In this document: piece after piece, positions 46,998 to 63,763 of the stretch | Layout: each line of letters begins with the position of its first letter | Numbering within the stretch: the first letter of the stretch is position 1 | From: Acidobacteriota bacterium | GTDB lineage: Bacteria > Acidobacteriota > Thermoanaerobaculia > Multivoradales > JBCCEF01 | NCBI GenBank assembly: GCA_039028635.1 | Contig: JBCCHV010000004.1 | Coordinates: 89,385-153,384, forward strand | Direction: 5' to 3' | DNA length: 64,000 nucleotides | Program-made: the position numbers and the translations under genes | The notes under the pieces: generated by a model | Databases searched by the model: none | Seen by the model: the letters and a program-made list of their open reading frames with translations, nothing else | What the model was told of the DNA's origin: nothing

Positions 46998-47122
46998 CGC
47001 CGTCTCTCGCTCCTACCAGTCGGTGAGGAGAGGGTCGAGGTTCACGGCGGCACCGGTCGAGAGTTGAGAGGGTTTATCGTATTGTCTGAGTAATATTTTA
47101 ATTGTTGTCGCCGGGAGGGAAG

Positions 47123-48292
47123 ATGGTGAGACGATCGCTGTGGAGCCTTGTCTTCATATGGATGGCCGTCGCTCCAGCCTGCGGAGCAGCCTTGTCATCG
47201 CAGGCTGACGATCCGAGGGCGGACGCTGTTGGCGAAGCAGTCGTCGCGGCTGCCGAACGTGCCGAGGTCGCTGCCGAACGAGCCGAACAGGCCGCGATGC
47301 GTGGGGACCGAGCTTCCAAGAAGGCCGACACGCTGGTGGGTGCGATGCAGGTCTTCGTGGCGGTGCTCGCTTTCATTCTGGTCGTAGCTGGTTCGATCGG
47401 ATTACTGGAGCTGCGAAATCTTCGCGAGGCTCGCCAACAGGCCGAAGCCCAAGTCGCCGAGATTCGGAAAATGCGGGACTCTCTGGGAGAGAGCTGGGCT
47501 CGCTTTGTGCGAGAGGCTCTCGAGCGACTGGAGGCGCTCGGGTCTTACATTGACGGAACCCATCCCGAGATGGAGCGTACCGACGAGTTCTTGGATGCCG
47601 ATCGCGTGGCCATTGTTGGTGATGCGCTCGGGCTCGCCAGGGATCCGAACACCCGATTCGACATCCTCTTTCGGCTGGGACGCCACTGGAAGAGTCAAGG
47701 ATTCTATGCCCGCGCCTTGCAGCGGTTCGAGCGGAGCCGGGAGTTGGCGGTAGACCTCAATGCCAGCAGTTGTGGAAAGGCCCGAGCCCTGAACTTCATG
47801 GCGCTGACGCTGATTGAATGGGCGGAGACGCTCAGCAAGCGATCGACCCAGCAGGTGACCGCCGGTCACGAGGACTCGTCACGCTCGGCGGGTGCGTCAC
47901 TACTTCAGGAGGCCGAAGGCATCTTGGTTCCGCTGCTTGGCGCGGGGGCCGAGGTCAGTGTCGAGACCCTTTTCGTTCAAGGCAAGCTGGAGTGGGCTCA
48001 GAGGCGACTGGACCAAGCCCTCGGCACTTATGCCGCAGTCATCGAACGGGCTCGCAACAGTGCAGATGAGGAGGAGAGAGCCGATGGCTACCGAGCGATC
48101 TACAACACGGCTTGCGCCCTCTGTGACCGCCGAAAGGAAGGAGACCTCTACCGTGCGATGGGCTTCCTGGAATCTCTTCCCAGGTCGGAAGGTTGGGCGC
48201 GATGGGCTGGAGAGGATGAAGACTTGCAGCCGCTGAGGGATGACCCGAACCTAGGGCCTCGGTTCGAGAGATTTACTTTTACCGAGAGGTAG
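47123..48292 (+). CDS. hypothetical protein (N-terminal signal/TM, helical repeats) in lower-GC segment
   Basis: Preceded by the AT-rich stretch TATCGTATTGTCTGAGTAATATTTTAATTGTTG and a GGGAGGGAAG RBS. No family was recognised. Confidence 0.5.
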   Translation: MVRRSLWSLVFIWMAVAPACGAALSSQADDPRADAVGEAVVAAAERAEVAAERAEQAAMRGDRASKKADTLVGAMQVFVAVLAFILVVAGSIGLLELRNLREARQQAEAQVAEIRKMRDSLGESWARFVREALERLEALGSYIDGTHPEMERTDEFLDADRVAIVGDALGLARDPNTRFDILFRLGRHWKSQGFYARALQRFERSRELAVDLNASSCGKARALNFMALTLIEWAETLSKRSTQQVTAGHEDSSRSAGASLLQEAEGILVPLLGAGAEVSVETLFVQGKLEWAQRRLDQALGTYAAVIERARNSADEEERADGYRAIYNTACALCDRRKEGDLYRAMGFLESLPRSEGWARWAGEDEDLQPLRDDPNLGPRFERFTFTER

Positions 48293-48550
48293 CTGGGCTG
48301 CTGGCGGTCGCTGGGGTTCAGGGCGAACCCAGAGCGAGTCGCTAGAACTTGGTGATGTCGTCGTTGGTCTTCATGATTCTCCGATCGTAGTGCCTAGTTG
48401 AAGAATTCTCAAGCTCATTCTCGACTGGCCCTCGAGAAGCCTCGACCATGAAAACGCGTTTCGGCGCCGAAAATTCCTGCACTGGGGGCGAGGGTTGGAG
48501 GAGGTCATGCCGTTGTTTCCAACGGCATGACTCGGGTCTCTCTTCGCCGA

Positions 48551-50599
48551 TCAGAGCAATCGAGCGTGGTAGATGCGGTGGTGGTCGTTGGCGTTGATCC
48601 AGAAGATCCTCACTTGCCCCCCGAGGTTGGCCAAAGCCGGTGCGCACGCCGCGTGGTGCGGGTCGCCGTTGATCGGAGCGGGCTGCGACCAGCTCTCGAA
48701 GGGAGAGGAAGAGCGACTGTAGAGGATGCGACTGCCATCGCCGCGCTCCTTCCAGGCAACGAAGACTTCGCCATTCAGCTCGGTGACCGCCGGTGAGAAG
48801 TCCGACGAAGCGCCCGGGATGGTCTTGGGTGCTTGCCAGGTCTGAGTATTCCAGCTCGTGTACCAGAGCTCCCGCGTCGCGCTTTTCGAGTTGCCGAAGA
48901 CCAGGAGCTGAGTTCCGACGGGGATCGCAGCCGGTGTTTTCTCGCTGGCATAGGCGTCACCGATTCGCTGAGGCGTTCCCCAGGAGATGCCGCCATCCTC
49001 GGAGGTCTTGTAGCAGAGGCGGCGCTTGTCCTCATCTTCCACCCACAGCAGGATGCGGCCGGTCTTGATGCCATAGAAGCGGCTGAGAGCCGGTGATTCG
49101 GGCGTGGCGTTGCCTTGAATCTCGGAGTGCTTGCTCCAGGTCCAGCCCTTCATCTGGCTCCAGGTTCCGCGAGCTCCGTAGATTTCCGGCTGGTTCCATT
49201 CGTACCCGCGCCAGACGAGCTGCAGGCCTTCATTGTCGCTGAGCTTGTCCGGGAGCGCCGCCGAGTAGAGGTAGGTCAGGTAGTTGCGCCAGTCGCCTCC
49301 GCCGACGATCTCGGGAGCCTTCCAGGTTTCGCCCTGGTGTCGGCTGCTGAAGTAGATGCCGCCGCGGGCGTGCTCCGCTGTCCACAAGACCATGGACTCG
49401 GGACTCGGGGGGTCGAGATTGGGAGTGCCGTGGAAGTCGAAGGCGACCGGGGTTTGACGCGATTTGGCGTTGGGGTGGAGGGCTCGCCCACGACTGAAGT
49501 CCCCCGACCACAAGCAGCCGGAGTGGGCGTTCACGTGCGCCGCGATGCGGCTGATGTTGGGAGCCAGGAAGATGCGCTTGGTGCCGAAGGATGGGCACAT
49601 GATGATGGCGTCGGGCCCTTGGCAGTGCTCGGTGCCGACGTGCAGGGCGCCGAAGTTGTGCCCCAGCTCGTGAGAGACCAGGGCGACCAAGCCGTTCTGG
49701 CTTCCGAAGGGCAGAGCGGAAAGACCATAGGTCGGTGTCTTGCACACCGTGCCGGTGTCGGCGATGCCGGCGATGTTGCCGTCGAGCTCCTTGCCGCTGA
49801 ACAGATGGGTGAGGGCCCGTTCGGCGGTGATCTGGCCGCCGTAGGCACGCAATTGCCCCAGTAGCGTCGTGTCCTTGGTCGACTTGTAGGGCTGTGCGCT
49901 CGCCGACTTGTGGACGGCGAGGTGGGTGACCACGAGGCGCAGTCCGTGATGGCTTTCGAAGACGGCGCTGACCTCGTTGAGGACGCCCAGAATCTTGGCG
50001 CTCCAGTTGCTCTGATTTCGATTCCAGAACTCGAAGTCGGCCTCGATCGCGATCGGCACCGTAAAGGTCGGATTCATCGCTTCTGTCGGAGGGGTGTTCG
50101 GGACCGGCGAGACTTCGGTCGGATTGCCGCAGCTCGGCTCCGTTGGGTTCGGTGAGGAGATGAGATCCGAATCCCGATACAGCACCAAAAGGCTGTCATC
50201 AAGGCTCTCGCTGAAGGAGGCCGCAGGCTCGAAGAAGGTCGTTTCCCCGGGAGTCGCGATTCGTCCTTGCAAGAAGCCCGGGGCGATGACCAGCTGGACG
50301 CTGCTCTCGGGCTGGTGGGTGAGGTGACCGCGGTAGATGCCGATGCGCTCGAGCTCGCGGGCGGTTTCCACCGAGTCGGCGAGGTCGCCGTCCCAGATCG
50401 CATGAGGCTCGAGGGTGAGCTCGAGCTCGCGGTCTGCGATGCGCAGGACGACCGGTTCTCCTGCCGACAGGGCTCGGCGGAGAGCATCGACCTGCAGGTG
50501 GAACAACGTGAAGTGGGCGAGGTGCGGGGCGAGCGCGTCGCGCAGAGCGGTGGTGGGTTCGACGATATCGGCGGTGACAGGTGTCTGGTTCGTTGTCAT
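48551..50599 (-). CDS. metzincin zinc metalloprotease (reprolysin/M12B-like) fused to BNR/Asp-box-containing C-terminal region
   Basis: HELGHNFGALH zinc site followed by the Met-turn AIIMCP. The C-terminus has Asp-box-like SEDGGISWGT and Trp-rich repeats. GGGAGGAAGAG RBS before the ATG at 50597-50599. No obvious signal peptide. Confidence 0.65.
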   Translation of the reverse strand: MTTNQTPVTADIVEPTTALRDALAPHLAHFTLFHLQVDALRRALSAGEPVVLRIADRELELTLEPHAIWDGDLADSVETARELERIGIYRGHLTHQPESSVQLVIAPGFLQGRIATPGETTFFEPAASFSESLDDSLLVLYRDSDLISSPNPTEPSCGNPTEVSPVPNTPPTEAMNPTFTVPIAIEADFEFWNRNQSNWSAKILGVLNEVSAVFESHHGLRLVVTHLAVHKSASAQPYKSTKDTTLLGQLRAYGGQITAERALTHLFSGKELDGNIAGIADTGTVCKTPTYGLSALPFGSQNGLVALVSHELGHNFGALHVGTEHCQGPDAIIMCPSFGTKRIFLAPNISRIAAHVNAHSGCLWSGDFSRGRALHPNAKSRQTPVAFDFHGTPNLDPPSPESMVLWTAEHARGGIYFSSRHQGETWKAPEIVGGGDWRNYLTYLYSAALPDKLSDNEGLQLVWRGYEWNQPEIYGARGTWSQMKGWTWSKHSEIQGNATPESPALSRFYGIKTGRILLWVEDEDKRRLCYKTSEDGGISWGTPQRIGDAYASEKTPAAIPVGTQLLVFGNSKSATRELWYTSWNTQTWQAPKTIPGASSDFSPAVTELNGEVFVAWKERGDGSRILYSRSSSPFESWSQPAPINGDPHHAACAPALANLGGQVRIFWINANDHHRIYHARLL

Positions 50600-50895
50600 C
50601 TCTTCCTCCCGGAAGGCTTGAGAAGAAGCGACCGCAGGGCGAATACACGCTGGCTGTTCGCCGATCGCAGGGACGCTGGGTCCGTAGCCGGTCGACGCTC
50701 GTTGGGGGAAACCTGCCCCGGATCGCAGATTGGAATCTGCACCGGGTGTGTTCTCGGCGGAGAAACGTTTCAGCAGCTCAGGAGTCGAGCTGCTAGGGCG
50801 GTCCGCCTGTGTCCTACGGGTTGCTGAAGGGGCCATCGGCCGGGGCATCCCTCGATGGAGGTCCCGGCGGCCTCGAGGGGTACCTGCCTCCGGCG

Positions 50896-51285
50896 CTACT
50901 CCCAGGCTTCGGCGCCCTGGACGACCCGCGACTGGATCTGGGCGATCCTTTCGGCATGGGCCTTGATCGACGTGGCGTGGGGGCCTTGCCAGCTCTGGTC
51001 AACGGTTTCCCGGAAGAGCTCGATCCAGCGCCCGAACTGCTCGGCGCGGAAGGGCATCTGCTGCGACAGGACCGAGTGCTTCTGGGTCGGCGAGCCGTGG
51101 AACCCTGGAATGCGCAGCTCGACGGCGCACCAGAAGGCAGTCAGCTTGGTGATGTGCTCGTCCCAGTCGACTCCCGCTTGGTCGACGAAGACGGGGCCGA
51201 GCAGATCGTCCCGCTGGACCCGCTCGTAGAAGGCGCGGACGAAGGTCTCGAGACGTTCGGGGCTGTCGAGATCCGGTCGTGACAT
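50896..51285 (-). CDS. truncated-hemoglobin-like (globin family) protein
   Basis: 129 aa. FYERVQRDDLLGPVF ... LTAFWCAVE ... GSPTQKHSVL ... FGRWIELF resembles group II/III truncated globins. Confidence 0.5.
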   Translation of the reverse strand: MSRPDLDSPERLETFVRAFYERVQRDDLLGPVFVDQAGVDWDEHITKLTAFWCAVELRIPGFHGSPTQKHSVLSQQMPFRAEQFGRWIELFRETVDQSWQGPHATSIKAHAERIAQIQSRVVQGAEAWE

Positions 51286-51298
51286 AGGGTCCTCGCGG

Positions 51299-51482
51299 CT
51301 AGCCCGGCCTTCTCACGAGGTTTCCTGGCGAGAGGCCGTAGGTTCTTGAAGATGCAAGGCATCCGTCGCTGCCACGACGCAGCCGTACTCGATGTACTGC
51401 GAGGAGAGCAGGCGACGGATAACGCAGCAGATTCTGGGACATACGGACGCGCAGCGGAAAGCTCGTGAGAAGGGCGGGCTAG
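51299..51482 (-). mobile_element. MITE-like inverted-repeat element, family B copy 1 (inverted relative to copies 2 and 3)
   Basis: CTAGCCCGGCCTTCTCACGAG ... CTCGTGAGAAGGGCGGGCTAG, a 20-21 bp TIR. About 90% identical to 53481-53663 and 57839-58027. The terminal CTAG supplies the stop of the small membrane ORF. It sits in the promoter of the globin gene. Confidence 0.6.
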
Positions 51483-51862
51483 CTGGAGAGGGATTCGATC
51501 ACGATCGCGACCAGGACGAAGAGGATCGTCAGCAGGCCGCAGCCGTTGATGCCGCCGCCGAGGAAGGCCATCAGCTTCGGTTCTCGGGATGCGGCTCGGA
51601 TGCCATAGGAGGTGCCGAAGCCGAAGGGAATCGCCGACCCGAAGAAGATCAGCAGCACCAGGCCGGCGAGAGGGCCGGCGATCGATCGGTTGTCCGACAG
51701 TATGGCGATTGCGAAGCCGCCGAAAACGCAAATCCCCAGCAGCACCACCCAGGTGATCGATCCCAACAGCATCGACTTGACGCCCAGCGGAGATTCGCCC
51801 CGGGCCGACGAGGGCGGATTCGGAGTTGCCCCCTCGGAAGGAGGATCTGGAGTATTGGTCAT
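51479..51862 (-). CDS. hypothetical small membrane protein
   Basis: 127 aa from MTNTPDPPSEG, with a Pro-rich N-terminus and three hydrophobic helices. The longer ORF extension is non-coding repeat sequence. Confidence 0.45.
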   Translation of the reverse strand: MTNTPDPPSEGATPNPPSSARGESPLGVKSMLLGSITWVVLLGICVFGGFAIAILSDNRSIAGPLAGLVLLIFFGSAIPFGFGTSYGIRAASREPKLMAFLGGGINGCGLLTILFVLVAIVIESLSS

Positions 51863-52167
51863 TCTTTGACCTCGACGACCTCTCGGTGGTTGGGGACCGG
51901 AGCGTTTAGTCCGGGCCTTGTTCTCAACTCTCTCATGGGAAGGCGCAGGCTTGAAGGTTCGGTGGCGGTCAATGCTAGAGTTCAAGGCGGCGGCCGCGCT
52001 GAGCGCCCAACTCCTGCAGGCCTCTCGCCCCGAGGCCTCTCGTCGGAGCAAAGGGGAGCCCGGACTTCTCCAGCGCCAAGTGTCTGACGATCTCTAGGTT
52101 TCAGACCATGAGCTCAGTGGAAGGGGGCGACTTCTGTTGTGCTCATGGGACCAGAGGATGAGATGTC

Positions 52168-53463
52168 ATGACACAGCAGTCAAGCTTCAAAGCTCGTGTG
52201 CGCGCTCGGATGTCTAAGACCGGAGAGCGCTACGCTGCAGCGCGCCTCGCCCTGCTCAAGAACGCCAGCTCCAACGCCGATTCTCCAGCCGCCGAAGCGG
52301 TACCGCCAGGGACCATTCTCACGGACCTCGGGGCCCTGGCGATGGCGCTCCAAGCCGCCGGTATCGTCGACCCTGCCACCGGGGCTCCGTTCTCCGAGAC
52401 TCGCCTCTTCGGACTCTCCGGTGGCCCTGGCTTCATGAGCTTTGTTTTTCAGTACCAGAACGTTGCTCCGATCCTGACCATCACCTGTCGGAGCTTTTCT
52501 CTTCCGGGGCCGGTCGTCGATCGGGCACTGGAGCATGCCGGGATCAACCCGGATCGCTTCGAGAGCGGGAGCACCAGCAAGAGCCGCCGAGCTCTCGACC
52601 AGGTTCTGGAGCAATCTCGCGTCGCCCATCTCGCCGTCGATCAAGCGCGATTGCCGTGGCTCGGGTTGGATCCGATCTGGCAGGGGCAGTGGCCGCGTCA
52701 CGTCAATGTCTCCAAGGTCGGCGACGCCTTTCGAGTTCAGGACCAGGCGCAGTGGACGCTCAGCGAGGAGCAGCTCGCGGCGGCTCGAGCCGGCATCAAA
52801 AAGGCCAAGCATCGAATGCTGTCCTTTGGTGACACCACGGTGGGCGATCCCGTGGCGGCGACGCGCCAAGCGCTCGAGTTCTACGTCAGCAATCAAAGAA
52901 CCGCACCCTACGCCAACTTCAAAAACAACTTCGGGCTCAAGGGCTTGGCCCGTACCGCCCAAGCGATGGGCGACCTGACCACCAAGAAGGGCTGGCTGCG
53001 AACCTTCGACAGCGGACCCTATGCCTTTGCTGCCCTTTGGCGCCTGTGGGAGTGTCTCACCGTGGAGCTGACGGCGCCGGCCGCTGGCCGGCCTCTGTTC
53101 GCGGACTTTCTCGAGCAGGCGAGCGAGCTTCCCGGCTGTCCCGATCTTCGATCGGCCGCTGAGCTGGCGCGGGCCAGCGGCGAGGCGTTCGAAGATCTGG
53201 TCGATCTCGCCGTGGCGGCCGGAGGCGGGCCGCTCGGCCAAGCCATCGAGTGGACCGAGGCCATCGACGAGGCACTGCGCTCCGGTGCTCCCGACACTCC
53301 CGAGACCGTTCGCGAGCTGCGCGCCCGTCGCGCTGCGCTGGCGGCGCAATGCACCCTCGACGAAGCGTCTCGTCGTGAAGTGTTCACCGCCCTTGCCGCT
53401 CAGATGAATCGGATCCTCGATCGCGAGACGGCTCTGGTCGAAGCGCTCGAGCGCAAGCCCTGA
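52168..53463 (+). CDS. hypothetical protein (possibly BtrH_N/DUF4872-like; unverified)
   Basis: 431 aa with good GC3 bias. The family assignment is only a weak recollection. Flanked by inverted family-B repeats. Confidence 0.45.
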   Translation: MTQQSSFKARVRARMSKTGERYAAARLALLKNASSNADSPAAEAVPPGTILTDLGALAMALQAAGIVDPATGAPFSETRLFGLSGGPGFMSFVFQYQNVAPILTITCRSFSLPGPVVDRALEHAGINPDRFESGSTSKSRRALDQVLEQSRVAHLAVDQARLPWLGLDPIWQGQWPRHVNVSKVGDAFRVQDQAQWTLSEEQLAAARAGIKKAKHRMLSFGDTTVGDPVAATRQALEFYVSNQRTAPYANFKNNFGLKGLARTAQAMGDLTTKKGWLRTFDSGPYAFAALWRLWECLTVELTAPAAGRPLFADFLEQASELPGCPDLRSAAELARASGEAFEDLVDLAVAAGGGPLGQAIEWTEAIDEALRSGAPDTPETVRELRARRAALAAQCTLDEASRREVFTALAAQMNRILDRETALVEALERKP

Positions 53464-53480: not shown

Positions 53481-53663
53481 TAGCCCGTCCTTCTCACGAG
53501 CTTTCCGCTGCGCGTCCGTATGTCCTCGAATCTGCTGCGTTATCCGTCGTCTGCTCTCCTCGCAGTACGTCGAGTACGGCGGCGTCGTGGCAGCGCCGGA
53601 TGCCTTGCATCTTCAAGAACCTACGGCCTCTCGCGAGGAAACCTCGGGAGAAGGCCGGGTTAG
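53481..53663 (+). mobile_element. MITE-like inverted-repeat element, family B copy 2
   Basis: TAGCCCGTCCTTCTCACGAGC ... ACCTCGGGAGAAGGCCGGGTTAG. Has the internal hairpin CCGTCG..CGACGG. Confidence 0.6.
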
Positions 53664-57841: not shown

Positions 57842-58027
57842 CCCTCGCCCGTCCTTCTCACCAGCTTTCCGCTGCGAGTCCGTAGGTCCCCGAATCTGCT
57901 GCGTTATCCGTCGCTTGCTCTCCTCGCAGTACGTCGAGTACGGCAGCGTCGTGGCAGCGACGGATGCCTTGCATCTTCAAGAATCTACGGCCTCTCGCCA
58001 GGAAACCTCGTGAGAAGGGCGGGCTAG
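57839..58027 (+). mobile_element. MITE-like inverted-repeat element, family B copy 3
   Basis: Exactly fills the gap between convergent genes. The left TAG is the sigma stop codon and the right CTAG contains the amine oxidase stop. Confidence 0.6.
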
Positions 58028-59217
58028 AACGTTCGGGAGGTGCTCTCCAGGACTTGATCCACGGCCTCGAACCCGGAGAGGGCGGCGCCGTGCACGGTGG
58101 CCCAGCTTTCGGCGTAGGTCTCGCCGGCGAAGAAGACCTTGCCTTCGAGCGGCGAGCGGAGGATGGCCCGGGTTGCCGCGTCGGTATCGAAGGTGTAGGA
58201 ACCTCGGATGAAGGGTTCTTTCGACCAGTTCTGTACGACGTGTTTCACATGGTGCTTGGAGGCTGCGCCGCCGAAGATGCGATCGAGCTCGTCCAGCGCG
58301 AGGTCGACAGTCTCTTGGTCGGTCGCGGCCGTTGCGTAGGGTCTCGCAGGGTCCCCAACGGTGAACAGACCGAGGATGTTCCTCGAGCTGTCCTTCTTGA
58401 AAGCCGCGTCGTAGTAGATCTTCTCGCCCCAGCCCTGGATCTTATTGGGTCCGCCTTGGAGGAGGTCGGGGTAGAACCGCTCCCGGAATTCGAAGAACAA
58501 CTTCAGGCCATCCGGCATCGAGAGGCGGTTCAACGCCGCGACTTTCTCCCCGGGCAGCTCGGGAGTGAACTGAATCTCCGCTTCTTTCAGGACCGTCAAG
58601 GGGACTGTGACGATGATGCGATCGGCTTTGTGAGTCGTGCCGTCTTGCGTGATCACCTGGACTCGGCGGCCCGAAACGTCGATGGCCCGGACCGGGCTGT
58701 CGAGACGAATGCGGCCCTGGATTCTGGACGCCAGGTGTTTTTCGAAGAAGCCGAACCAGGTTGTCCGCTTGAACTTGTGCTCCGCATAGACGAGTGAAGC
58801 GAGGCGGTTCTTGCGGATCCGGCCGCCCTTCCAGGTCGAGATCCAAGGGTTGTACTTGACGACCTCGAACTTGCGACCAGCCTCTGGATCGTGCGCCAAC
58901 TCTTCCAGAATCGAAGGCGCGGTGTGAATCCACTCTGCGCCGAGGTCGATGGGGAAGTCAGCGAAGTCGGAGATCCGCTTCATGCGGCCGCCGATACGAG
59001 AGGAGGCCTCGAGGATCTCGAATTCGACGCCGCGGCGCTCGAGGGCGAAGCCGGCGGCGAGTCCCGCGGCCCCGGCGCCGATCACCAGCACCTTGAAGTC
59101 CAAGGCAGGCGTGACGCTTCTTCGCCCCGCAGCTTCCTGAGGTTGAATCCTCAGAGCAAGCTGCTGAAGGCCGAGAATGGCGCCTGCTGCGCCGCGGAGG
59201 AAGGTCCTGCGATCCAT
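58024..59217 (-). CDS. flavin-containing amine oxidase (Tat-secreted)
   Basis: Tat motif MDRRTFLRGAAGA. FAD Rossmann VLVIGAGAAGLAAGFAL..EILEASSRIGGR. C-terminal amine-oxidase block (FFAGETY). Confidence 0.75.
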   Translation of the reverse strand: MDRRTFLRGAAGAILGLQQLALRIQPQEAAGRRSVTPALDFKVLVIGAGAAGLAAGFALERRGVEFEILEASSRIGGRMKRISDFADFPIDLGAEWIHTAPSILEELAHDPEAGRKFEVVKYNPWISTWKGGRIRKNRLASLVYAEHKFKRTTWFGFFEKHLASRIQGRIRLDSPVRAIDVSGRRVQVITQDGTTHKADRIIVTVPLTVLKEAEIQFTPELPGEKVAALNRLSMPDGLKLFFEFRERFYPDLLQGGPNKIQGWGEKIYYDAAFKKDSSRNILGLFTVGDPARPYATAATDQETVDLALDELDRIFGGAASKHHVKHVVQNWSKEPFIRGSYTFDTDAATRAILRSPLEGKVFFAGETYAESWATVHGAALSGFEAVDQVLESTSRTF

Positions 59218-59437
59218 CAGGACAGAGTATAGCGACGGAGCCCTAGACGGTCGTCTCTCTCGAGTACAAGCCCATCTTCGTTTCGGAGGCGTCCCTGCGC
59301 GGCCCCTCTACGGCAGCCTCTCAGGGCAGCGGAGGAGGCGCCGAATCAAGACGCGGGGCGATTGGCTCGAATCTGCGGGCTACCTCATCCGCTCAGTTGC
59401 GCCTTTCGGCCAGTTTTGGTGTTGCCTCCCTCGTCCG

Positions 59438-59827
59438 CTACCAGGCCTCGACTTGAAGAGATTCGACCTGAGCGAAGTGGCGATCACGAGTCGCCAGGAT
59501 CAGATCGTGTTGCCGGGCACAGGCTGCAATCCAGATATCGTTCTCAGGAATCGGCCGCCCCTGCTGTTGGAGATGCGCCTTAAGCGTCCCGTACTGCTGA
59601 GCAGTCGCGATGTCCTGTGGCATCACCGGACAGACCTCTACCAGCCCTTCGATCCGGCGACGGTTGGCCTCGGGACGAGCTGACTTCGCAGCCCCAAAGA
59701 GCAATTCACCGACGACCATGAGGCAGAGAAAAGACTTGATCCCGAGACCGCGGCGGGCTTCAAGATCAACGTCCTGATTGAGCACACGTATGGCGACGTT
59801 GGTATCGAGCAGGTACCTACCACTCAT
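59438..59827 (-). CDS. vapC: type II toxin VapC (PIN-domain ribonuclease)
   Basis: 129 aa starting MSGRYLLDTNVAIRVLN. PIN acidic residues (D at LLDTN, E in GELLFGA, D in ILATRD). Confidence 0.75.
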   Translation of the reverse strand: MSGRYLLDTNVAIRVLNQDVDLEARRGLGIKSFLCLMVVGELLFGAAKSARPEANRRRIEGLVEVCPVMPQDIATAQQYGTLKAHLQQQGRPIPENDIWIAACARQHDLILATRDRHFAQVESLQVEAW

Positions 59828-60068
59828 CGGCGTCGACCCGCCACCCATCCGCGTCAACCTGCTCGCATCCCTCTTCGATTGCTTCCATCATCTCGCGCGC
59901 CGATTTGTCGTCAAGAGTGCCGGCAACCTTCATCAGATCCTCGACCGAGGCTCCCTGAAGGCTGGACCTGGCCAGATCGTGGACCAGCGCGGCGGCCCGC
60001 TCCTGTTGCTTGGGCGAGAGCCGGTCCAGGTCACTAAGAATCTGCTCCTTGATCGTTGGTACCACCAT
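59817..60068 (-). CDS. type II antitoxin (VapB-like) of VapC
   Basis: 83-aa acidic protein. The 11-nt overlap with the vapC start is the classic TA operon layout. Confidence 0.55.
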   Translation of the reverse strand: MVVPTIKEQILSDLDRLSPKQQERAAALVHDLARSSLQGASVEDLMKVAGTLDDKSAREMMEAIEEGCEQVDADGWRVDADEW

Positions 60069-60432
60069 AGTGCCACCTCCTTTGCGCTCCGGTGCGCGGT
60101 CCGATTCTATCCGGCAGCCTAAGGAGGCGGTGAGATCGCCCCTGCCTCTTCGGCAAGAGCCAGGAGATACCTCATAGCGACCTCCCTACCGTTGGCCTCG
60201 GTGGTATCCGATTGAAGAGGTGCCCCAACGACCCGCCTTCCTATGCTCGGTGGACCGAGTTGGAGTTGGCAGGTCGGGCGGTCCTGTAGGATGTCCGCAA
60301 TACATCTTGAGCGAATTCTTGAAATCATGCTCTGGCTTCCACCTCTGGGCAGGAAATTCTAGCTTGGACACTTCTCCTTGGTTGCTTTGGGGAGGCTTGG
60401 GCAGCACACGGCCAACGAAGAGGAGGCAGACA

Positions 60433-61695
60433 TTGGCAAGGCGGGGATTCTTTGCAGAGATTAGCCACCAAGTGCGACAGGCGGAAAAGGCAAGAGCAAG
60501 GGCGGAGCGAGAGGAGGAGCGAGCTAGGAAGGCGGCTATCCGTGATCTTGAAAGAGCCCGGAAGAAGTCCGAGCGCCTTAGGCAGCAAGCTGTAAGAGCC
60601 CACGCTGCTGAGAAGAAGAGGCTCGAAAAAGAGGCTCGTGCTGCTCACTTCGCCGCTAGACAAGCCGAGGTCGACAAGCAGAACAGCGAGCTTGAGCAGC
60701 AGTTCCAAGAGATTGAATCCCTATTAGCAGCCACGCTTGATGTAGATGATTATGTAGACTTGGACTCTCTCCGGAAGAAGGCCGAGCACCCGGCGTTTGG
60801 CCACCCGGATCTTGAGGTACCCATCCAGCCACCCGAACCACCTTCTGAGTCGCCAGAGCCAGTGTTCATTGAACCAAGGGCACCGAAGGGGCTTGCGGCG
60901 CTTTTTGGCCGGAAGAAGGCAGCGAGAGCGGTTGCGGCAGCCAATGAAGCTCATGTGGAAGCCGTCACTGCCTGGCGCTCCAAAGTAGAAGAGCTCAAAG
61001 CCCTTCACAAGGCTGAGTTGAGGGGCGCCGCAGAGCGCGAGGAGAAGCGATTAGAGCGGCTCAAGGCTGAGAGAGGGAAGTATGAGAAAGAGTGCGCCGA
61101 GCGTGAAAAGGCCGTTGCCGAACACAACTCTAGGCTAGATACCTTCATAACCAATCTTGGCTACGGAACTGCCGAAGCGATTCAAGAGTACGTGTCCATC
61201 GTGCTGGCGAACTCTGTCTACCCTCCGGTATTTCCTGTCGATCACGACTTTGACTTCGACCCAAATAGCGCCGAGCTCCGGTTGCGGGTTGTCGTTCCGC
61301 CCCCCGAAGCAATGCCGACCGTCAAGGCCTACCGATACGTCAAATCCAAAGACGAAATCATGGCAACGTCCCTTTCCCAGAAAGCGTCCAAAGAGAGGTA
61401 CGAAAGTGCCATCCATCAAGTGGCGCTTCGGTCGGTGCATGAGGTGTTCGAAGCCGACCGCCGGGGGCTCATTAGGACCATCTCCATGGAACTGGGCACA
61501 GAGACTGTCAGACCAGCAACGGGGCGGATGGACTACTTCCCATTCGTCGCCTTGGCAACTGACCGAGATCAGTTCCTTGAGCTGAACCTATCGGCCGTCG
61601 TGCCAACCGCCAGCCTTGAGCATCTTGGTGCGGTGATATCCAAGAATCCCTTTGGGCTAGTTACGGTTGATGCATCAGGGGTCCGTCAGGCATGA
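60433..61695 (+). CDS. hypothetical coiled-coil protein (component A of candidate two-gene defence module)
   Basis: TTG start 6 nt after a GAGGAGG RBS. About 200 aa of Lys/Arg/Glu-rich coiled coil (AEKARARAEREEERARKAAIRDLERARKK...), then a roughly 200-aa globular C-terminal domain (VDHDFDFD ... YESAIHQVALRSVHEVF). No P-loop. About 58% GC. Confidence 0.55.
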   Translation: MARRGFFAEISHQVRQAEKARARAEREEERARKAAIRDLERARKKSERLRQQAVRAHAAEKKRLEKEARAAHFAARQAEVDKQNSELEQQFQEIESLLAATLDVDDYVDLDSLRKKAEHPAFGHPDLEVPIQPPEPPSESPEPVFIEPRAPKGLAALFGRKKAARAVAAANEAHVEAVTAWRSKVEELKALHKAELRGAAEREEKRLERLKAERGKYEKECAEREKAVAEHNSRLDTFITNLGYGTAEAIQEYVSIVLANSVYPPVFPVDHDFDFDPNSAELRLRVVVPPPEAMPTVKAYRYVKSKDEIMATSLSQKASKERYESAIHQVALRSVHEVFEADRRGLIRTISMELGTETVRPATGRMDYFPFVALATDRDQFLELNLSAVVPTASLEHLGAVISKNPFGLVTVDASGVRQA

Positions 61696-63044
61696 CCGAT
61701 GACTCGGCTATCTTCAATCCCCCTCCTGGCTGGCCAAAACCGCCAGAGGGCTGGAAGCCGCCACCTGGCTGGTCACCGGACCCCGCCTGGCCTGCGCCGC
61801 CCGAGGGCTGGGAACTGTGGCTTCCGGCAACTGCCGAGGACGGGAAGCAAGATGAGGCTGAGTCGACTTCTCCTGCCAAGTTGCCCAGGGGGAACTCGGA
61901 AGCGAGACAGGCCGACAGCGCTTCGGTGGACCGGGTCGCACAGCTCGAAGCGGAGAACGCGGCACTACGCGCACGCCTAGACTCTGATCCTCTAGAGGAC
62001 GATGCCATCACCCTGAGCGACGAGGCGGTGCTCCAAGAGGTGGGCATCTACCAATACCACCACCCGCTGGAAAGCGCGGTTGCTTACAAGGAAACCCTGA
62101 AGAAGCTGTCGAGTCGAATCGCAGATCAAGTGCGCTTCAGAAGCGCGATCGAGGTCTCGAGCCGATTCACCTTCAACAACTCGCTCGCGCAGGGGCGCAG
62201 GCTGTCCTCGAACCTCTCTCGACTGATGCTTCGCGCTTACAACGCTGAGGTAGACAATTGTCTTCGCTCGCTGAGAGCTGGAAACGTAGTTACCGCGAAG
62301 AAGAGAGTCGAGGCTTCTCGCAGGGCGATCAGAAAGCTCGGCAGCATTATGGAGATGCAGATTAGCCCCGGGTACCACGCGCTACGACTTGAGGAGATCG
62401 AGCTCACAGCGGACTACCTGATCAAGAAGAAGGAAGAGAGGCTCGCGGCCCGAGAGGAGCGGGCCCGCCTCCGGGAGGAACGACGGGTCGAGGCCGAGTT
62501 GGCGGCGGAGCGCGAGCGGCTAGAGAAAGAACGCAGCCACCTCCTGAACGCCCTGGCAACTCTTCGGGCGGGCGGCTCTTCGGATGAGGACCTGGAGAGC
62601 AAACTAAGCGAAGTCGAGGTGGCGATTGAGCACAATGACTACCGGGCGGCCAACATCCGAGCAGGCTACGTGTATGTCATATCTAATCGTGGCTCTTTTG
62701 GGAGAGGAGTCGTCAAGATAGGGCTTACTCGCCGCCTGCAGCCGCTAGTGCGCGTTTCCGAGCTTAGCGGGGCCTCGGTGCCTTTTCGGTTTGATGTGCA
62801 TGGACTCTTCTTCTCAGAGGATGCAGTCTCCCTCGAGGCCGAATTGCACGAGGAATTTGCGCCGCGCCGTGTGAACCTCGCGAATAGCCGTAAGGAATTT
62901 TTCTTTGCGAGCCCGTCGGAGGTCCAAGAGGCCTTGGTGTCGAAAGTTGGAAGCTTGCTGGAATTCAAAGAGGAGGCTGAGGCGACCGAGTACTGGCAAA
63001 GCCTGCACCACTGGCCAGAGGACCACAGAAGCCGCAATCAATAG
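61692..63044 (+). CDS. DUF4041 + T5orf172 (GIY-YIG-like nuclease) domain protein (component B)
   Basis: ATGA overlap with gene A. N-terminal PxGW tandem repeats. DUF4041-like helical region with RLAAREERARLREERR. C-terminal T5orf172/MUG113 motif GYVYVISNRGSFGRGVVKIGLTRR...R..EL....PF.FDVH..F.SEDA..LE..LH..F...RVN......EFFFASP. Confidence 0.65.
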   Translation: MTDDSAIFNPPPGWPKPPEGWKPPPGWSPDPAWPAPPEGWELWLPATAEDGKQDEAESTSPAKLPRGNSEARQADSASVDRVAQLEAENAALRARLDSDPLEDDAITLSDEAVLQEVGIYQYHHPLESAVAYKETLKKLSSRIADQVRFRSAIEVSSRFTFNNSLAQGRRLSSNLSRLMLRAYNAEVDNCLRSLRAGNVVTAKKRVEASRRAIRKLGSIMEMQISPGYHALRLEEIELTADYLIKKKEERLAAREERARLREERRVEAELAAERERLEKERSHLLNALATLRAGGSSDEDLESKLSEVEVAIEHNDYRAANIRAGYVYVISNRGSFGRGVVKIGLTRRLQPLVRVSELSGASVPFRFDVHGLFFSEDAVSLEAELHEEFAPRRVNLANSRKEFFFASPSEVQEALVSKVGSLLEFKEEAEATEYWQSLHHWPEDHRSRNQ

Positions 63045-63248
63045 GTTCGGAAGAGCGATGAGAACCTCGCCGTAGCTAGGGAGGGGTGTAGCGCTGCGCT
63101 CGACGCTCATGCTTTAGGTGCCGGCGTAGTCACAGTTCCACCCTCCTCCCTGACTCTTCAGCCTCAACTTGAATCAGCAGGGCTGGCTGCCTGGTCCGAT
63201 GAGCCAGAGGTTTGCCCCGGTTCTCGAAAGCCCACTGGTCCAGCGATC

Positions 63249-63616
63249 GTGCCTCTCCCGTCACCGGTGATCTCCTTCCTTGCTGACCTTCGCAAAGAGC
63301 GTCGCTCCGAGGTCTGGGTCGTCGCCAACAAGGCCGGGAATCGAGAAAGACACCTCCTCGAGATTTTCAAGATCGTCTGCCGGCGAGCCAAGATCACCCC
63401 TCAGGCAGCGATGCTTTATGCGCTCCGTCGTTCCTTCGGGACCCACCTGCGAGGGCAGGGGTTCGCCTGGCTGACATCGCTGGTCTCAGGGGGCAAAGCG
63501 ACCTGGCAACCACCAAGATCTACGCTAGCCTACCTCCCTCCGATTTCGGCGGCGCTGTTACGCAAAATGACGCCGTTGGTGGGTGGCTCTGGCGAGCCGT
63601 CACACAAACCTGCTGA
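63249..63616 (+). pseudogene. tyrosine recombinase/integrase remnant (C-terminal catalytic part only, frameshifted)
   Basis: One frame gives the R...HxxR box (LYALRRSFGTHLRGQG). The conserved LATTKIYASLPPS tail with the catalytic Tyr is in a different frame, so there is a frameshift near 63470. The N-terminal two thirds are absent. Confidence 0.5.
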
Positions 63617-63689
63617 AGAGAGCGAGTCGACTCGCTTGATCGAGCCTAAACCATCGCTAATAAGAGGCTTGGAGAGTGGTATCGAGAAG

Positions 63690-63763
63690 TGGCTGGGACG
63701 CAGGGAGTCGAACCCCGATTCTACGGTCCAGAGCCGCATGTCTTGCCATTAGACGACGTCCCA
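63690..63763 (-). tRNA. tRNA-Gln (anticodon CUG)
   Basis: Reverse complement: TGGGACGTCGTCTAATGGCAAGACATGCGGCTCTGGACCGTAGAATCGGGGTTCGACTCCCTGCGTCCCAGCCA. 7-bp acceptor stem, GTCT/AGAC D stem, anticodon loop CTCTGGA, T-loop TTCGACT, encoded CCA. Confidence 0.8.

What the first reader, a model, noticed from the sequence alone, without database searches (positions are those of the whole stretch)
59218..63763. Small low-GC genomic island integrated at the 3' end of tRNA-Gln(CUG), with decayed integrase
GC drops from about 70% to about 57% between the amine oxidase gene and the tRNA-Gln. The island carries vapBC, the A/B module and an integrase that is both N-terminally truncated and frameshifted (R..HxxR and LATTKIYA..Y boxes in different frames). 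The six-frame integrase ORF runs through the tRNA, which is an artefact. This is consistent with an old, now immobilised tRNA-targeting island. No clear direct repeat of the tRNA 3' end (attR) was spotted on the far side by eye.
Basis: seen in the sequence. Interest (0 to 1): 0.6.

Follow-up and report, generated by a model that had tools for sequence, protein, structure and literature searches.

The report
Decayed defence islet beside tRNA-Gln
A 4.5-kb stretch of foreign-looking DNA next to a tRNA-Gln gene in an uncultured Acidobacteriota genome is the immobilised remnant of an integrating element; it carries a toxin-antitoxin pair and a two-gene anti-phage nuclease cassette, and the island is an ordinary kind of thing, though the cassette's first gene is uncharacterised.

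Summary
Window 59218-63689 has 59.2% GC against 68.2% in the first 47 kb. It is the most deviant 4.5-kb segment by tetranucleotides, about 4 SD out. Its genes have GC3 of 0.61-0.75 against 0.83 +/- 0.05. Composition returns to 67% just past the tRNA.

Contents:
- an intact vapBC pair
- a conserved two-gene cassette: A (420 aa, coiled coil, no family) and B (SNIPE / PD-lambda-1 nuclease)
- a tyrosine-recombinase pseudogene ending 73 nt from the 3' end of tRNA-Gln(CUG)

The pseudogene lacks its N-terminal domain and has lost one base in a G run. Two catalytic His are replaced (H->Y, H->Q). An independent assembly carries the identical sequence.

No att repeat of the tRNA exists anywhere in the window. 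No syntenic relative or empty site could be found, so integration is inferred rather than shown.

The inference rests on the same A-B cassette elsewhere. It lies in 4-5-kb islets bounded by direct repeats of tRNA-Leu and tRNA-Met. In one locus it lies beside an intact integrase abutting tRNA-Val in the same geometry.

Verdict: a degraded tRNA-associated defence islet, a new member of a known kind and of modest interest. The undescribed A partner of SNIPE is the most interesting by-product.

The parts
59218..59437 (.). Left junction zone: intergenic region between the start of the host-like amine oxidase gene (58024-59217, minus strand) and the stop of vapC. The island border lies somewhere in here.
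   Evidence: GC3 changes from 0.80 (amine oxidase) to 0.66 (vapC) across it. No att-like match to the tRNA: Smith-Waterman score 7.0, against a null of 7.9 +/- 1.1. No homology to the upstream region of the 68%-identical amine oxidase in L083.
59438..59827 (-). vapC, a PIN-domain toxin of 129 aa from the ATG at 59827 (the mechanical ORF extends to 59857).
   Evidence: PF01850 PIN, E = 6.7e-16. NCBIfam tRNA(fMet)-specific endonuclease VapC models, 1.7e-24 and 2.1e-16, both below their curated cut-offs. phrog_13721, 2e-24. Acidic residues at the positions of the PIN catalytic motifs are visible in the translation: LLDTN, VGEL, ENDIW, TRDRH.
59817..60068 (-). vapB-like antitoxin gene of 83 aa. 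Its stop overlaps the vapC start by 11 nt.
   Evidence: ORF, also called in the independent Logan contig. No Pfam, NCBIfam or PHROG family, so the assignment rests on position and overlap only.
60069..60432 (.). Intergenic region between the divergent vapBA and A-B operons. Holds a GAGGAGG Shine-Dalgarno at 60420-60426, 6 nt before the TTG start of A.
   Evidence: Read from the sequence. The start at 60433 agrees with the gene call in the Logan contig and with the N-termini of 29 homologues. No promoter was verified.
60433..61695 (+). Gene A: 420-aa soluble protein with a coiled-coil hairpin and a C-terminal alpha/beta domain. It is the conserved upstream partner of the SNIPE-family gene.
61692..63044 (+). 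Gene B: SNIPE / PD-lambda-1 family nuclease of 450 aa. It has a PPxGW-rich N-terminus without a transmembrane helix, then DUF4041, then a GIY-YIG (T5orf172) domain. Its start overlaps the stop of A by 4 nt.
   Evidence: PF13250, 4.9e-19, and PF10544, 1.6e-14. PADLOC PD-Lambda-1, 1.4e-96. phrog_1847, 4e-100. Maximum 19-residue Kyte-Doolittle hydropathy is 0.61.
63045..63461 (+). Tyrosine-recombinase pseudogene, part 1 (same frame as B, open from B's stop codon). Recognisable homology runs from about 63246 and includes the box YALRRSFGTHL.
   Evidence: Versus XerD, H244 is Tyr here and R247 is kept. Profile positions 1-67 are not alignable. The whole N-terminal core-binding domain is absent.
63461..63616 (+). 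Tyrosine-recombinase pseudogene, part 2 (shifted frame after loss of one G in the run 63458-63461). Reads VRLADIAGLRGQSDLATTKIYA and ends at the TGA at 63614-63616.
   Evidence: XerD H270 is Gln here and the nucleophile Y279 is kept. The sequence is identical in Logan contig L001.
63690..63763 (-). tRNA-Gln(CUG), intact with encoded CCA. Its 3' end faces the island, 73 nt from the integrase pseudogene stop.
   Evidence: ARAGORN. Rfam RF00005, 55.4 bits, E = 3.4e-10.

Best explanation
Window 59.2-63.7 kb is the fixed remnant of a small integrative element. It entered an Acidobacteriota (Thermoanaerobaculia-like) chromosome by tyrosine-recombinase recombination at the 3' part of tRNA-Gln(CUG).

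Shown:
- The segment is compositionally foreign.
- It is bounded on one side by the tRNA 3' end.
- Next to the tRNA and pointing at it lies a recombinase gene that can no longer work. It has no N-terminal DNA-binding domain, has lost one base in a G run, and has Tyr and Gln in place of two catalytic His.

Inferred:
- The element integrated here.
- Its distal att copy has since been deleted or has eroded beyond recognition.
- The integrase lost its 5' half in a rearrangement whose junction lies directly at the stop codon of gene B.

What the island does now comes from its cargo.
- vapBC is an intact type II toxin-antitoxin pair with a PIN RNase toxin. By analogy it stabilises the segment and may contribute to abortive defence.
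- A-B is a two-gene anti-phage cassette. B is a SNIPE / PD-lambda-1 homologue, with a DNA-binding DUF4041 and a GIY-YIG nuclease. In E. coli this protein cuts phage DNA as it is injected (PMC13190303).
- This B has no membrane anchor. A, a soluble coiled-coil protein translationally coupled to B, is proposed to be its obligate partner, localising, restraining or triggering the nuclease.
For: Composition: GC, tetranucleotide and GC3 outlier, with host-like values restored at both edges.

Recombinase remnant: PF00589 E = 5e-6; XerA, XerD and integron-integrase models 8e-8 to 2e-3; residue-level alignment to XerD 1a0p. It is reproduced in an independent assembly.

The A-B DNA homology to eight other loci is confined to the two coding sequences, 60584-63032. 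The flanks are unrelated, so the pair behaves as a portable cassette.

Contexts of the same cassette:
- L084: a 3.8-kb islet between exact 40-bp direct repeats of tRNA-Leu.
- L086: tRNA-Met, then AbiEi/AbiEii plus A-B, closed by a 24/25 repeat of the tRNA anticodon-loop-to-T-stem segment 46 bp after B.
- L092: A-B, HEPN_AbiU2, HTH_17 and an intact integrase ending 13 bp from the 3' end of tRNA-Val, which is the window's geometry.
- L098: integrase, then A, then B at the end of an IMG/VR prophage contig.
- L096: a Kocuria plasmid.
- L093: a prophage-like element with an integrase.

The A-B link: SNIPE lies directly downstream in 10 of 10 contexts. P0161 is an A-SNIPE fusion. A-like regions are also fused to Mrr_cat nucleases and to NACHT/AAA_16 NTPases.
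Against: - No direct repeat of any part of the tRNA exists at the left border or anywhere in 64 kb.
- No related genome with an empty or occupied site could be recovered, so insertion at this site is not demonstrated.
- The recombinase remnant scores just under Pfam's gathering threshold. It found no homologue in the word-indexed protein search and shows no similarity to the integrases of L092 and L093.
- The window ends 237 bp beyond the tRNA, so the far flank is barely seen.
- The genes differ among themselves in GC3 (0.61-0.75), which fits separate arrivals as well as a single one.
- The role of A and the anti-phage activity of this B are untested.
Confidence: 0.72

Rival explanations
1. 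Serial accretion at a tRNA-adjacent hotspot rather than one island. An old integrative element left only its recombinase stump at tRNA-Gln. The A-B cassette and vapBC arrived later and independently. The A-B arrival deleted the integrase 5' half.
For: - A-B homology to other loci ends exactly at the gene boundaries, and the cassette travels with different neighbours: AbiE, AbiU2, IS elements, a plasmid.
- The junction with the recombinase remnant lies directly after B's stop codon.
- GC3 differs between A (0.61), B (0.70) and vapB (0.75).
- The missing att copy is easier to explain after several rearrangements.
Against: - No transposase, IS end or second att scar was found between the parts.
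- Toxin-antitoxin modules and A-B do occur together inside single att-bounded islets elsewhere (L086).
- This rival differs from the main explanation only in history, not in what the region is.
Confidence: 0.2
2. Native chromosomal region. The low GC reflects the amino-acid and codon bias of defence and TA genes, and the recombinase-like stretch next to the tRNA is coincidental.
For: No att repeat and no empty site were found. The neighbouring amine oxidase is also somewhat low in total GC (0.625). Another block at 47-52.5 kb is moderately low.
Against: - GC3, which is largely free of amino-acid bias, is 2.8-4.7 SD below the background for A, B and vapC.
- The nearest homologue of A is only 60% identical. 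The named sources among the hits are a Coriobacteriia MAG and a Thermoleophilia MAG, both in another phylum.
- The cassette is found on a plasmid and in prophages.
- A recombinase pseudogene converging on a tRNA 3' end is the signature geometry of integration (L092).
Confidence: 0.04
3. Assembly or binning artefact: the MAG contig joins unrelated sequences at the repeated tRNA.
For: The independent Logan contig stops inside the tRNA, at window 63737. It therefore does not confirm the join to the right flank.
Against: The Logan contig covers the left junction (amine oxidase to vapC) and everything up to 48 nt into the tRNA, with proteins identical to the window's. The right flank has host-like GC. 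A tRNA join would not change the conclusion that the islet abuts the tRNA 3' end.
Confidence: 0.04

Closest known systems
tRNA-integrated genomic islands and islets with tyrosine recombinases (P4-like and lambda-like integrative elements; anticodon-loop and T-loop att sublocations)
   Same: Foreign composition; position at the 3' end of a tRNA gene; a tyrosine-recombinase gene next to the tRNA and converging on it; TA and defence cargo.
   Different: The integrase is a pseudogene (truncated, frameshifted, two catalytic His lost). No flanking direct repeat survives. It is very small, at 4.5 kb.
SNIPE / PD-lambda-1 of E. coli (PMC13190303)
   Same: B has the DUF4041 plus GIY-YIG (T5orf172) architecture and matches the PADLOC PD-Lambda-1 models at 1.4e-96 and 3.7e-87.
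   Different: E. coli SNIPE is described as acting on its own and is anchored by an N-terminal transmembrane helix. This B has no TM segment (as in 34% of homologues, per that paper). It has a PPxGW-rich N-terminus and is always preceded by gene A, which that paper does not mention.
Intact analogue in L092 (ENA ERZ25039514 contig_304)
   Same: An A-B cassette, then accessory genes, then an integrase on the same strand, with its stop a few bases from the 3' end of a minus-strand tRNA.
   Different: The tRNA is Val, not Gln. The integrase is intact at 384 aa and shows no detectable similarity to the window's remnant. It carries HEPN_AbiU2 and HTH_17 instead of vapBC.
att-bounded A-B islets in L084 (tRNA-Leu) and L086 (tRNA-Met)
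   Same: Islets of 3.8-4.9 kb next to a tRNA that carry the A-B cassette (with an AbiE TA pair in L086). Both have lower GC than their flanks.
   Different: They keep clear direct repeats (40/40 and 24/25) but have no integrase at all. In L084 the repeat is the 5' half of the tRNA.
VapBC type II toxin-antitoxin systems
   Same: A PIN toxin with acidic residues at the catalytic-motif positions. A small upstream gene overlaps it by 11 nt.
   Different: The antitoxin matches no known antitoxin family. The toxin scores below the NCBIfam equivalog cut-offs, so its RNA target is not assignable.
PADLOC mREase_IV / Mrr-type 'restriction endonuclease' proteins with an A-like N-terminal region
   Same: The coiled-coil and C-terminal domain of A align along positions 17-379 of the model. 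Proteins P0172, P0224, P0250, P0259, P0270 and L097 carry the same region.
   Different: Those proteins end in an Mrr_cat PD-(D/E)xK nuclease domain. A stops before it, and the nuclease is instead supplied by the separate GIY-YIG protein B.

Membership tests
tRNA-integrated genomic island (tyrosine-recombinase type) | Lies directly at the 3' end of a tRNA gene | tested here: met
   The tRNA-Gln 3' end is at 63690. The recombinase pseudogene stop is at 63616. Low-GC DNA extends left from there.
tRNA-integrated genomic island (tyrosine-recombinase type) | Encodes a tyrosine recombinase next to the att site | tested here: inconclusive
   Only a pseudogene is present: PF00589 26.8 bits against a cut-off of 27.1, E = 5e-6, C-terminal 100 positions only. 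It is present as a relic and is not functional.
tRNA-integrated genomic island (tyrosine-recombinase type) | Flanking direct repeats (attL/attR) that duplicate part of the tRNA | tested here: not met
   There is no repeat above chance anywhere in the window. The 11-bp match at 47673 lies inside a gene and has E = 1.7.
tRNA-integrated genomic island (tyrosine-recombinase type) | Composition unlike the host | tested here: met
   GC 59.2% against 68.2%. Tetranucleotide distance about 4 SD above the mean. GC3 0.61-0.75 against 0.83 +/- 0.05.
tRNA-integrated genomic island (tyrosine-recombinase type) | Absent from the same site in related genomes (empty site) | not testable with these tools
   The nearest species representative has 56% identity in the kinase and no synteny. 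The only metagenomic amine-oxidase relative (68%) has a different neighbourhood. The right-flank peptide found nothing.
SNIPE / PD-lambda-1 | DUF4041 followed by a C-terminal GIY-YIG (T5orf172) nuclease domain | tested here: met
   PF13250 4.9e-19 at residues 177-232. PF10544 1.6e-14 at residues 325-415. PADLOC PD-Lambda-1 1.4e-96.
SNIPE / PD-lambda-1 | N-terminal transmembrane anchor | tested here: not met
   Maximum 19-residue hydropathy is 0.61. The published survey found 34% of homologues without a TM segment (PMC13190303), so this does not exclude membership.
SNIPE / PD-lambda-1 | Protects against phage by cutting injected DNA | not testable with these tools
   Needs phage challenge. The host is uncultured.
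VapBC type II toxin-antitoxin | PIN-domain toxin with the conserved acidic residues | tested here: met
   PF01850 6.7e-16. Acidic residues in the LLDTN, VGEL, ENDIW and TRDRH motifs are visible in the translation.
VapBC type II toxin-antitoxin | Small antitoxin gene immediately upstream and overlapping, with a recognisable DNA-binding fold | tested here: inconclusive
   An 83-aa ORF overlaps vapC by 11 nt, but it matches no antitoxin family.
Active tyrosine recombinase (PF00589) | Catalytic R-K-H-R-H/W-Y set and an N-terminal core-binding domain in one reading frame | tested here: not met
   Versus XerD, H244 is Tyr, R247 is kept, H270 is Gln and Y279 is kept. The Arg I region is not alignable. 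The N-terminal domain is absent. There is a frameshift at 63461.
Type IV Mrr-like restriction enzyme (PADLOC mREase_IV), considered for gene A | C-terminal Mrr_cat PD-(D/E)xK nuclease domain | tested here: not met
   A covers only profile positions 17-379 of 544 and has no Mrr_cat hit. Fused relatives do have the domain.

The most novel reading that the evidence does not exclude
A-B is an undescribed two-component form of the SNIPE defence system. In it a membrane-anchor-less SNIPE nuclease depends on a dedicated coiled-coil partner, A. The same module is fused in other lineages to Mrr nucleases and to STAND NTPases. A would therefore be a widespread, portable 'sensor or positioning' subunit for unrelated nuclease effectors. 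The cassette would spread as cargo of very small tRNA-targeting islets, several of which (L084, L086) have att repeats but no integrase and would have to be moved in trans.
Probability: 0.4. Interest if true: 0.55.

Novelty: new member of a known kind. Interest (0 to 1): 0.3.

Why it matters
The island itself is routine. It adds one more example, in a poorly sampled Acidobacteriota lineage, of tRNA genes collecting small defence islets that then decay in place.

The useful by-product concerns SNIPE / PD-lambda-1. A large share of its relatives lack a membrane anchor. A subset of them, shown here in 10 of 10 contexts, is strictly paired with a conserved, uncharacterised 420-aa coiled-coil protein. 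That protein also occurs fused to SNIPE, to Mrr nucleases and to NACHT/AAA_16 NTPases.

This gives a concrete, testable lead on how anchor-less SNIPE nucleases are positioned or kept off host DNA.

Tried and rejected
- att repeat. I ran short-word BLAST of the tRNA +/- 50 nt against the whole window. I ran anchored fuzzy searches of 20-45 nt. I ran Smith-Waterman against four candidate borders with a 400-window null. I searched 17- and 25-nt patterns with up to 3 mismatches. Nothing exceeded chance. The 11-bp match at 47673-47683, near the start of another low-GC block, does not extend and lies inside an ORF, so I rejected it.
- Empty site. A genome-contig scan with the neighbouring kinase gave a best hit of 56% identity and no tRNA within 10 kb in eight Acidobacteriota or Thermoanaerobaculia loci. 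A metagenome scan with the amine oxidase gave one 68% relative, flanked by a CHAT/TPR gene, with no tRNA and no island. Its upstream DNA is not alignable to the window.
- Source contig. The NCBI 164-kb contig that holds the window could not be retrieved. Only a 5.7-kb Logan contig came back.
- Right-flank gene. A search with its 41-aa C-terminus found nothing.
- Integrase relatives. The frameshift-corrected 190-aa fragment found no homologue in the word-indexed search. It has no relative among the fetched loci. The intact integrases of L092 and L093 do not match the window.
- Elements using this tRNA. The tRNA 3' 25-mer has no exact match in IMG/VR.
- Solved structures. There is no solved relative of B.
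- RNA families and signals. Rfam found no other RNA in 57.5-64 kb. The promoter and terminator scans were at chance level.


Full report
**Source and setting**

Gene A of the window is identical to an NCBI protein from a MAG labelled Acidobacteriota bacterium (locus tag AAF604_03225, contig of 164 kb). The nearest species representative in GTDB is a Thermoanaerobaculia MAG. It shares only 56% identity in the neighbouring Ser/Thr kinase. The lineage is therefore poorly sampled.

An independent Logan assembly of run SRR22824298 yields a 5,739-bp contig. It corresponds to window 57999-63737 and encodes identical proteins.

**Checking the observation: composition**

- The segment 59218-63689 is 59.2% GC, against 68.2% in 1-47000 and 66.9% overall.
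- Local 400-nt minima of 55.5-57.8% lie between 60.0 and 61.4 kb.
- Among 120 sliding 4.5-kb windows it has the lowest GC. It also has the largest tetranucleotide distance from the bulk: 0.39-0.40 against 0.167 +/- 0.058.
- Third-position GC removes most amino-acid bias. It is 0.827 +/- 0.047 for 28 background ORFs.
- For the island genes GC3 is 0.61 for A, 0.66 for vapC, 0.70 for B, 0.70 for the recombinase fragment and 0.75 for vapB.
- The amine oxidase on the left has GC3 of 0.80. The 237 bp right of the tRNA have 67% GC.

The size of the drop was slightly overstated; it is about 68% to 59%, not 70% to 57%.

**Gene content**

*tRNA.* tRNA-Gln(CUG) lies at 63690-63763 on the minus strand (Rfam 55.4 bits). 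Its 3' end faces the island.

*vapBC.*
- vapC (59438-59827) is a PIN protein (6.7e-16; VapC models 1.7e-24). Acidic residues sit at the positions of the PIN catalytic motifs.
- An 83-aa ORF (59817-60068) overlaps vapC by 11 nt in the usual antitoxin position. It matches no family.

*Gene A.*
- It starts at the TTG at 60433, behind a GAGGAGG site. This agrees with the independent gene call and with 29 homologues.
- It has no Pfam, NCBIfam or PHROG family.

*Gene B.*
- B (61692-63044) overlaps the stop of A by 4 nt.
- It is a DUF4041 plus T5orf172 protein. It matches the PADLOC PD-Lambda-1 model at 1.4e-96 and phrog_1847 at 4e-100.
- PD-lambda-1 has been renamed SNIPE. It is a membrane-bound GIY-YIG nuclease that cuts phage DNA during injection (PMC13190303).

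**The recombinase relic**

- The frame of B stays open after B's stop codon.
- From about 63246 it encodes ...PLPSPVISFL...YALRRSFGTHLRGQG.
- After the loss of one base in the G run 63458-63461, the next frame reads VRLADIAGLRGQSDLATTKIYA. It ends at the TGA at 63614.
- Joined, the two pieces match PF00589 over profile positions 68-167 of 172 (E = 5e-6, 26.8 bits, cut-off 27.1). They also match XerA and XerD models.
- Aligned to E. coli XerD, R247 and the nucleophile Y279 are kept. H244 is Tyr and H270 is Gln.
- The first 67 positions of the catalytic domain are no longer alignable. The whole N-terminal domain is missing, and the gene is cut off exactly where B ends.
- The Logan contig has the identical sequence in both frames.

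Correcting a sequencing error would therefore not restore a gene.

**What could not be shown**

*att repeat.* No copy of any part of the tRNA exists at the left border or elsewhere in the window.

*Empty or occupied site in a relative.* No relative with either could be found.
- The genome scan gave no synteny.
- The single metagenomic amine-oxidase relative (68%) has a CHAT/TPR gene upstream and no tRNA.
- The integrase fragment and the right-flank peptide found nothing.
- The tRNA 3' end has no exact match in viral contigs.

Integration at this tRNA is therefore an inference.

**Evidence from the same cassette elsewhere**

A has 1,557 homologues. Apart from the identical record, the best is only 60% identical. 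The named sources among the hits include a Coriobacteriia MAG and a Thermoleophilia MAG.

In all ten independent contexts examined, a SNIPE-family gene lies immediately downstream of A. It usually has the same 4-nt overlap. The contexts are the window, L084/85, L086, L087, L088-91, L092, L093/94, L095, the Kocuria rosea plasmid L096 and the IMG/VR prophage contig L098.

DNA similarity between the window and these loci is confined to the two coding sequences. A-B therefore behaves as a portable cassette.

Several contexts are informative.
- **L084.** The cassette sits in a 3.8-kb low-GC islet between exact 40-bp direct repeats of tRNA-Leu.
- **L086.** tRNA-Met is followed by AbiEi/AbiEii and A-B. 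The islet closes 46 bp after B with a 24/25 repeat of the tRNA's anticodon-loop-to-T-stem segment.
- **L092.** A-B is followed by HEPN_AbiU2, an HTH_17 gene and an intact integrase. The integrase's stop lies 13 bp from the 3' end of a minus-strand tRNA-Val. That is the window's geometry with a living integrase.
- **L098.** An integrase directly precedes A-B at a prophage end.

These loci show that the cassette habitually travels in small tRNA-targeting elements.

**How it most likely works**

The element entered by site-specific recombination at tRNA-Gln. Later the integrase lost its 5' half and decayed. The distal att was lost. The segment is now fixed. Each of these steps is inferred.

Its present activity lies in the cargo.
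- The intact vapBC pair would stabilise the segment.
- A-B is a SNIPE-type defence. Neither A nor B has a transmembrane segment; the maximum 19-residue hydropathy is 1.22 and 0.61.
- The published survey found 34% of SNIPE homologues without a TM and proposed other membrane-targeting N-termini. It does not mention a partner gene.

What is known about A:
- The AlphaFold model (pLDDT 89.4) shows a long antiparallel coiled coil (residues 3-95 and 160-244) and a C-terminal alpha/beta domain.
- A-like regions occur fused to SNIPE itself (P0161), to Mrr_cat nucleases (P0172, P0224, P0250, P0259, P0270, and L097 on a Methylobacterium plasmid), and to NACHT/AAA_16 NTPases (P0145, P0155).
- This explains the partial PADLOC mREase_IV hit.

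I therefore propose that A is the obligate partner of this anchor-less SNIPE nuclease, positioning or restraining it. The support is strict gene order, translational coupling and the fusion. There is no experiment behind it.

**Rivals**

- *Serial accretion.* The parts may have arrived one after another at a tRNA hotspot rather than as one element. The cassette's sharp boundaries, the junction at B's stop codon and the unequal GC3 values fit this. It changes the history, not the nature of the region.
- *Native origin.* This is disfavoured by GC3, by the cross-phylum distribution of the cassette and by the integrase-tRNA geometry.
- *Assembly chimera at the tRNA.* This cannot be fully excluded, because the Logan contig ends inside the tRNA. 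It would not alter the conclusion.

**Verdict**

The finding is real and correctly interpreted. It is a degraded, immobilised defence islet at tRNA-Gln, a new member of a well-known kind, and its interest as an island is low to moderate. The A partner of SNIPE is the part worth following up.

Noticed in passing
window 51299-51482, 53481-53663, 57844-58027: Three copies (93-95% alike) of a 184-nt MITE-like element with 28-nt terminal inverted repeats, GCTAGCCCGSCCTTCTCACGAGSTTTCC. One copy abuts the 3' end of the amine oxidase gene. Two copies bracket the kinase and ECF-sigma genes. Five TIR matches were found, against 0 expected.
   Followed up: partly
window 47000-52500: A second, milder compositional outlier: GC 0.63, tetranucleotide distance 0.25-0.26 against 0.167 +/- 0.058. 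It includes ORF 47102-48292 (GC3 0.68) and a 765-aa ORF at 48551-50848. It may be another acquired block.
   Followed up: no
L001 (Logan contig, equal to window 57999-63737): The independent contig breaks 29 nt into the MITE on the left and inside the tRNA, at 63737, on the right. If the right end is also a k-1 overlap, another sequence in the sample shares tRNA positions 1-56 but diverges in the last 17 nt or so. That is what an alternative occupancy of a T-loop att site would give. This is untested.
   Followed up: no
L084 9387-9426 and 13270-13309: The 40-bp exact direct repeat bounding the A-B islet is the 5' half of tRNA-Leu(tag), and the islet lies upstream of the tRNA. This is an unusual side for tRNA-targeted integration. 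The islet contains no integrase.
   Followed up: partly
P0161, P0172, P0224, P0250, P0259, P0270, P0145, P0155; L097 1982-3544: The A module occurs fused to SNIPE (762 aa), to Mrr_cat nucleases (520-721 aa, one with an added TerD domain) and to NACHT or AAA_16 NTPases. It looks like a portable accessory domain of defence nucleases.
   Followed up: partly
window 61692-61830; L084 11260-11400; L098 9181-9320: The N-terminus of B carries conserved proline/tryptophan repeats (PPPGWPKPPxGWxPPxGWxPDPxWP) in place of the transmembrane helix of E. coli SNIPE. The repeats are conserved in orthologues from unrelated contexts.
   Followed up: no
window 58024-59217; L083 9711-10913: The amine oxidase gene has lower total GC (0.625) than its surroundings, although its GC3 is host-like. 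Its 68% homologue in L083 is likewise lower in GC (0.55-0.61) than its neighbours (0.65-0.70). The gene may itself be an older acquisition.
   Followed up: no
L083 4127-6159: Two tandem paralogous genes of 309 and 313 aa, both ending ...DDPDIGIWVGDPP, lie in a 49-55% GC patch of a 65-69% GC contig. Their function is unknown.
   Followed up: no
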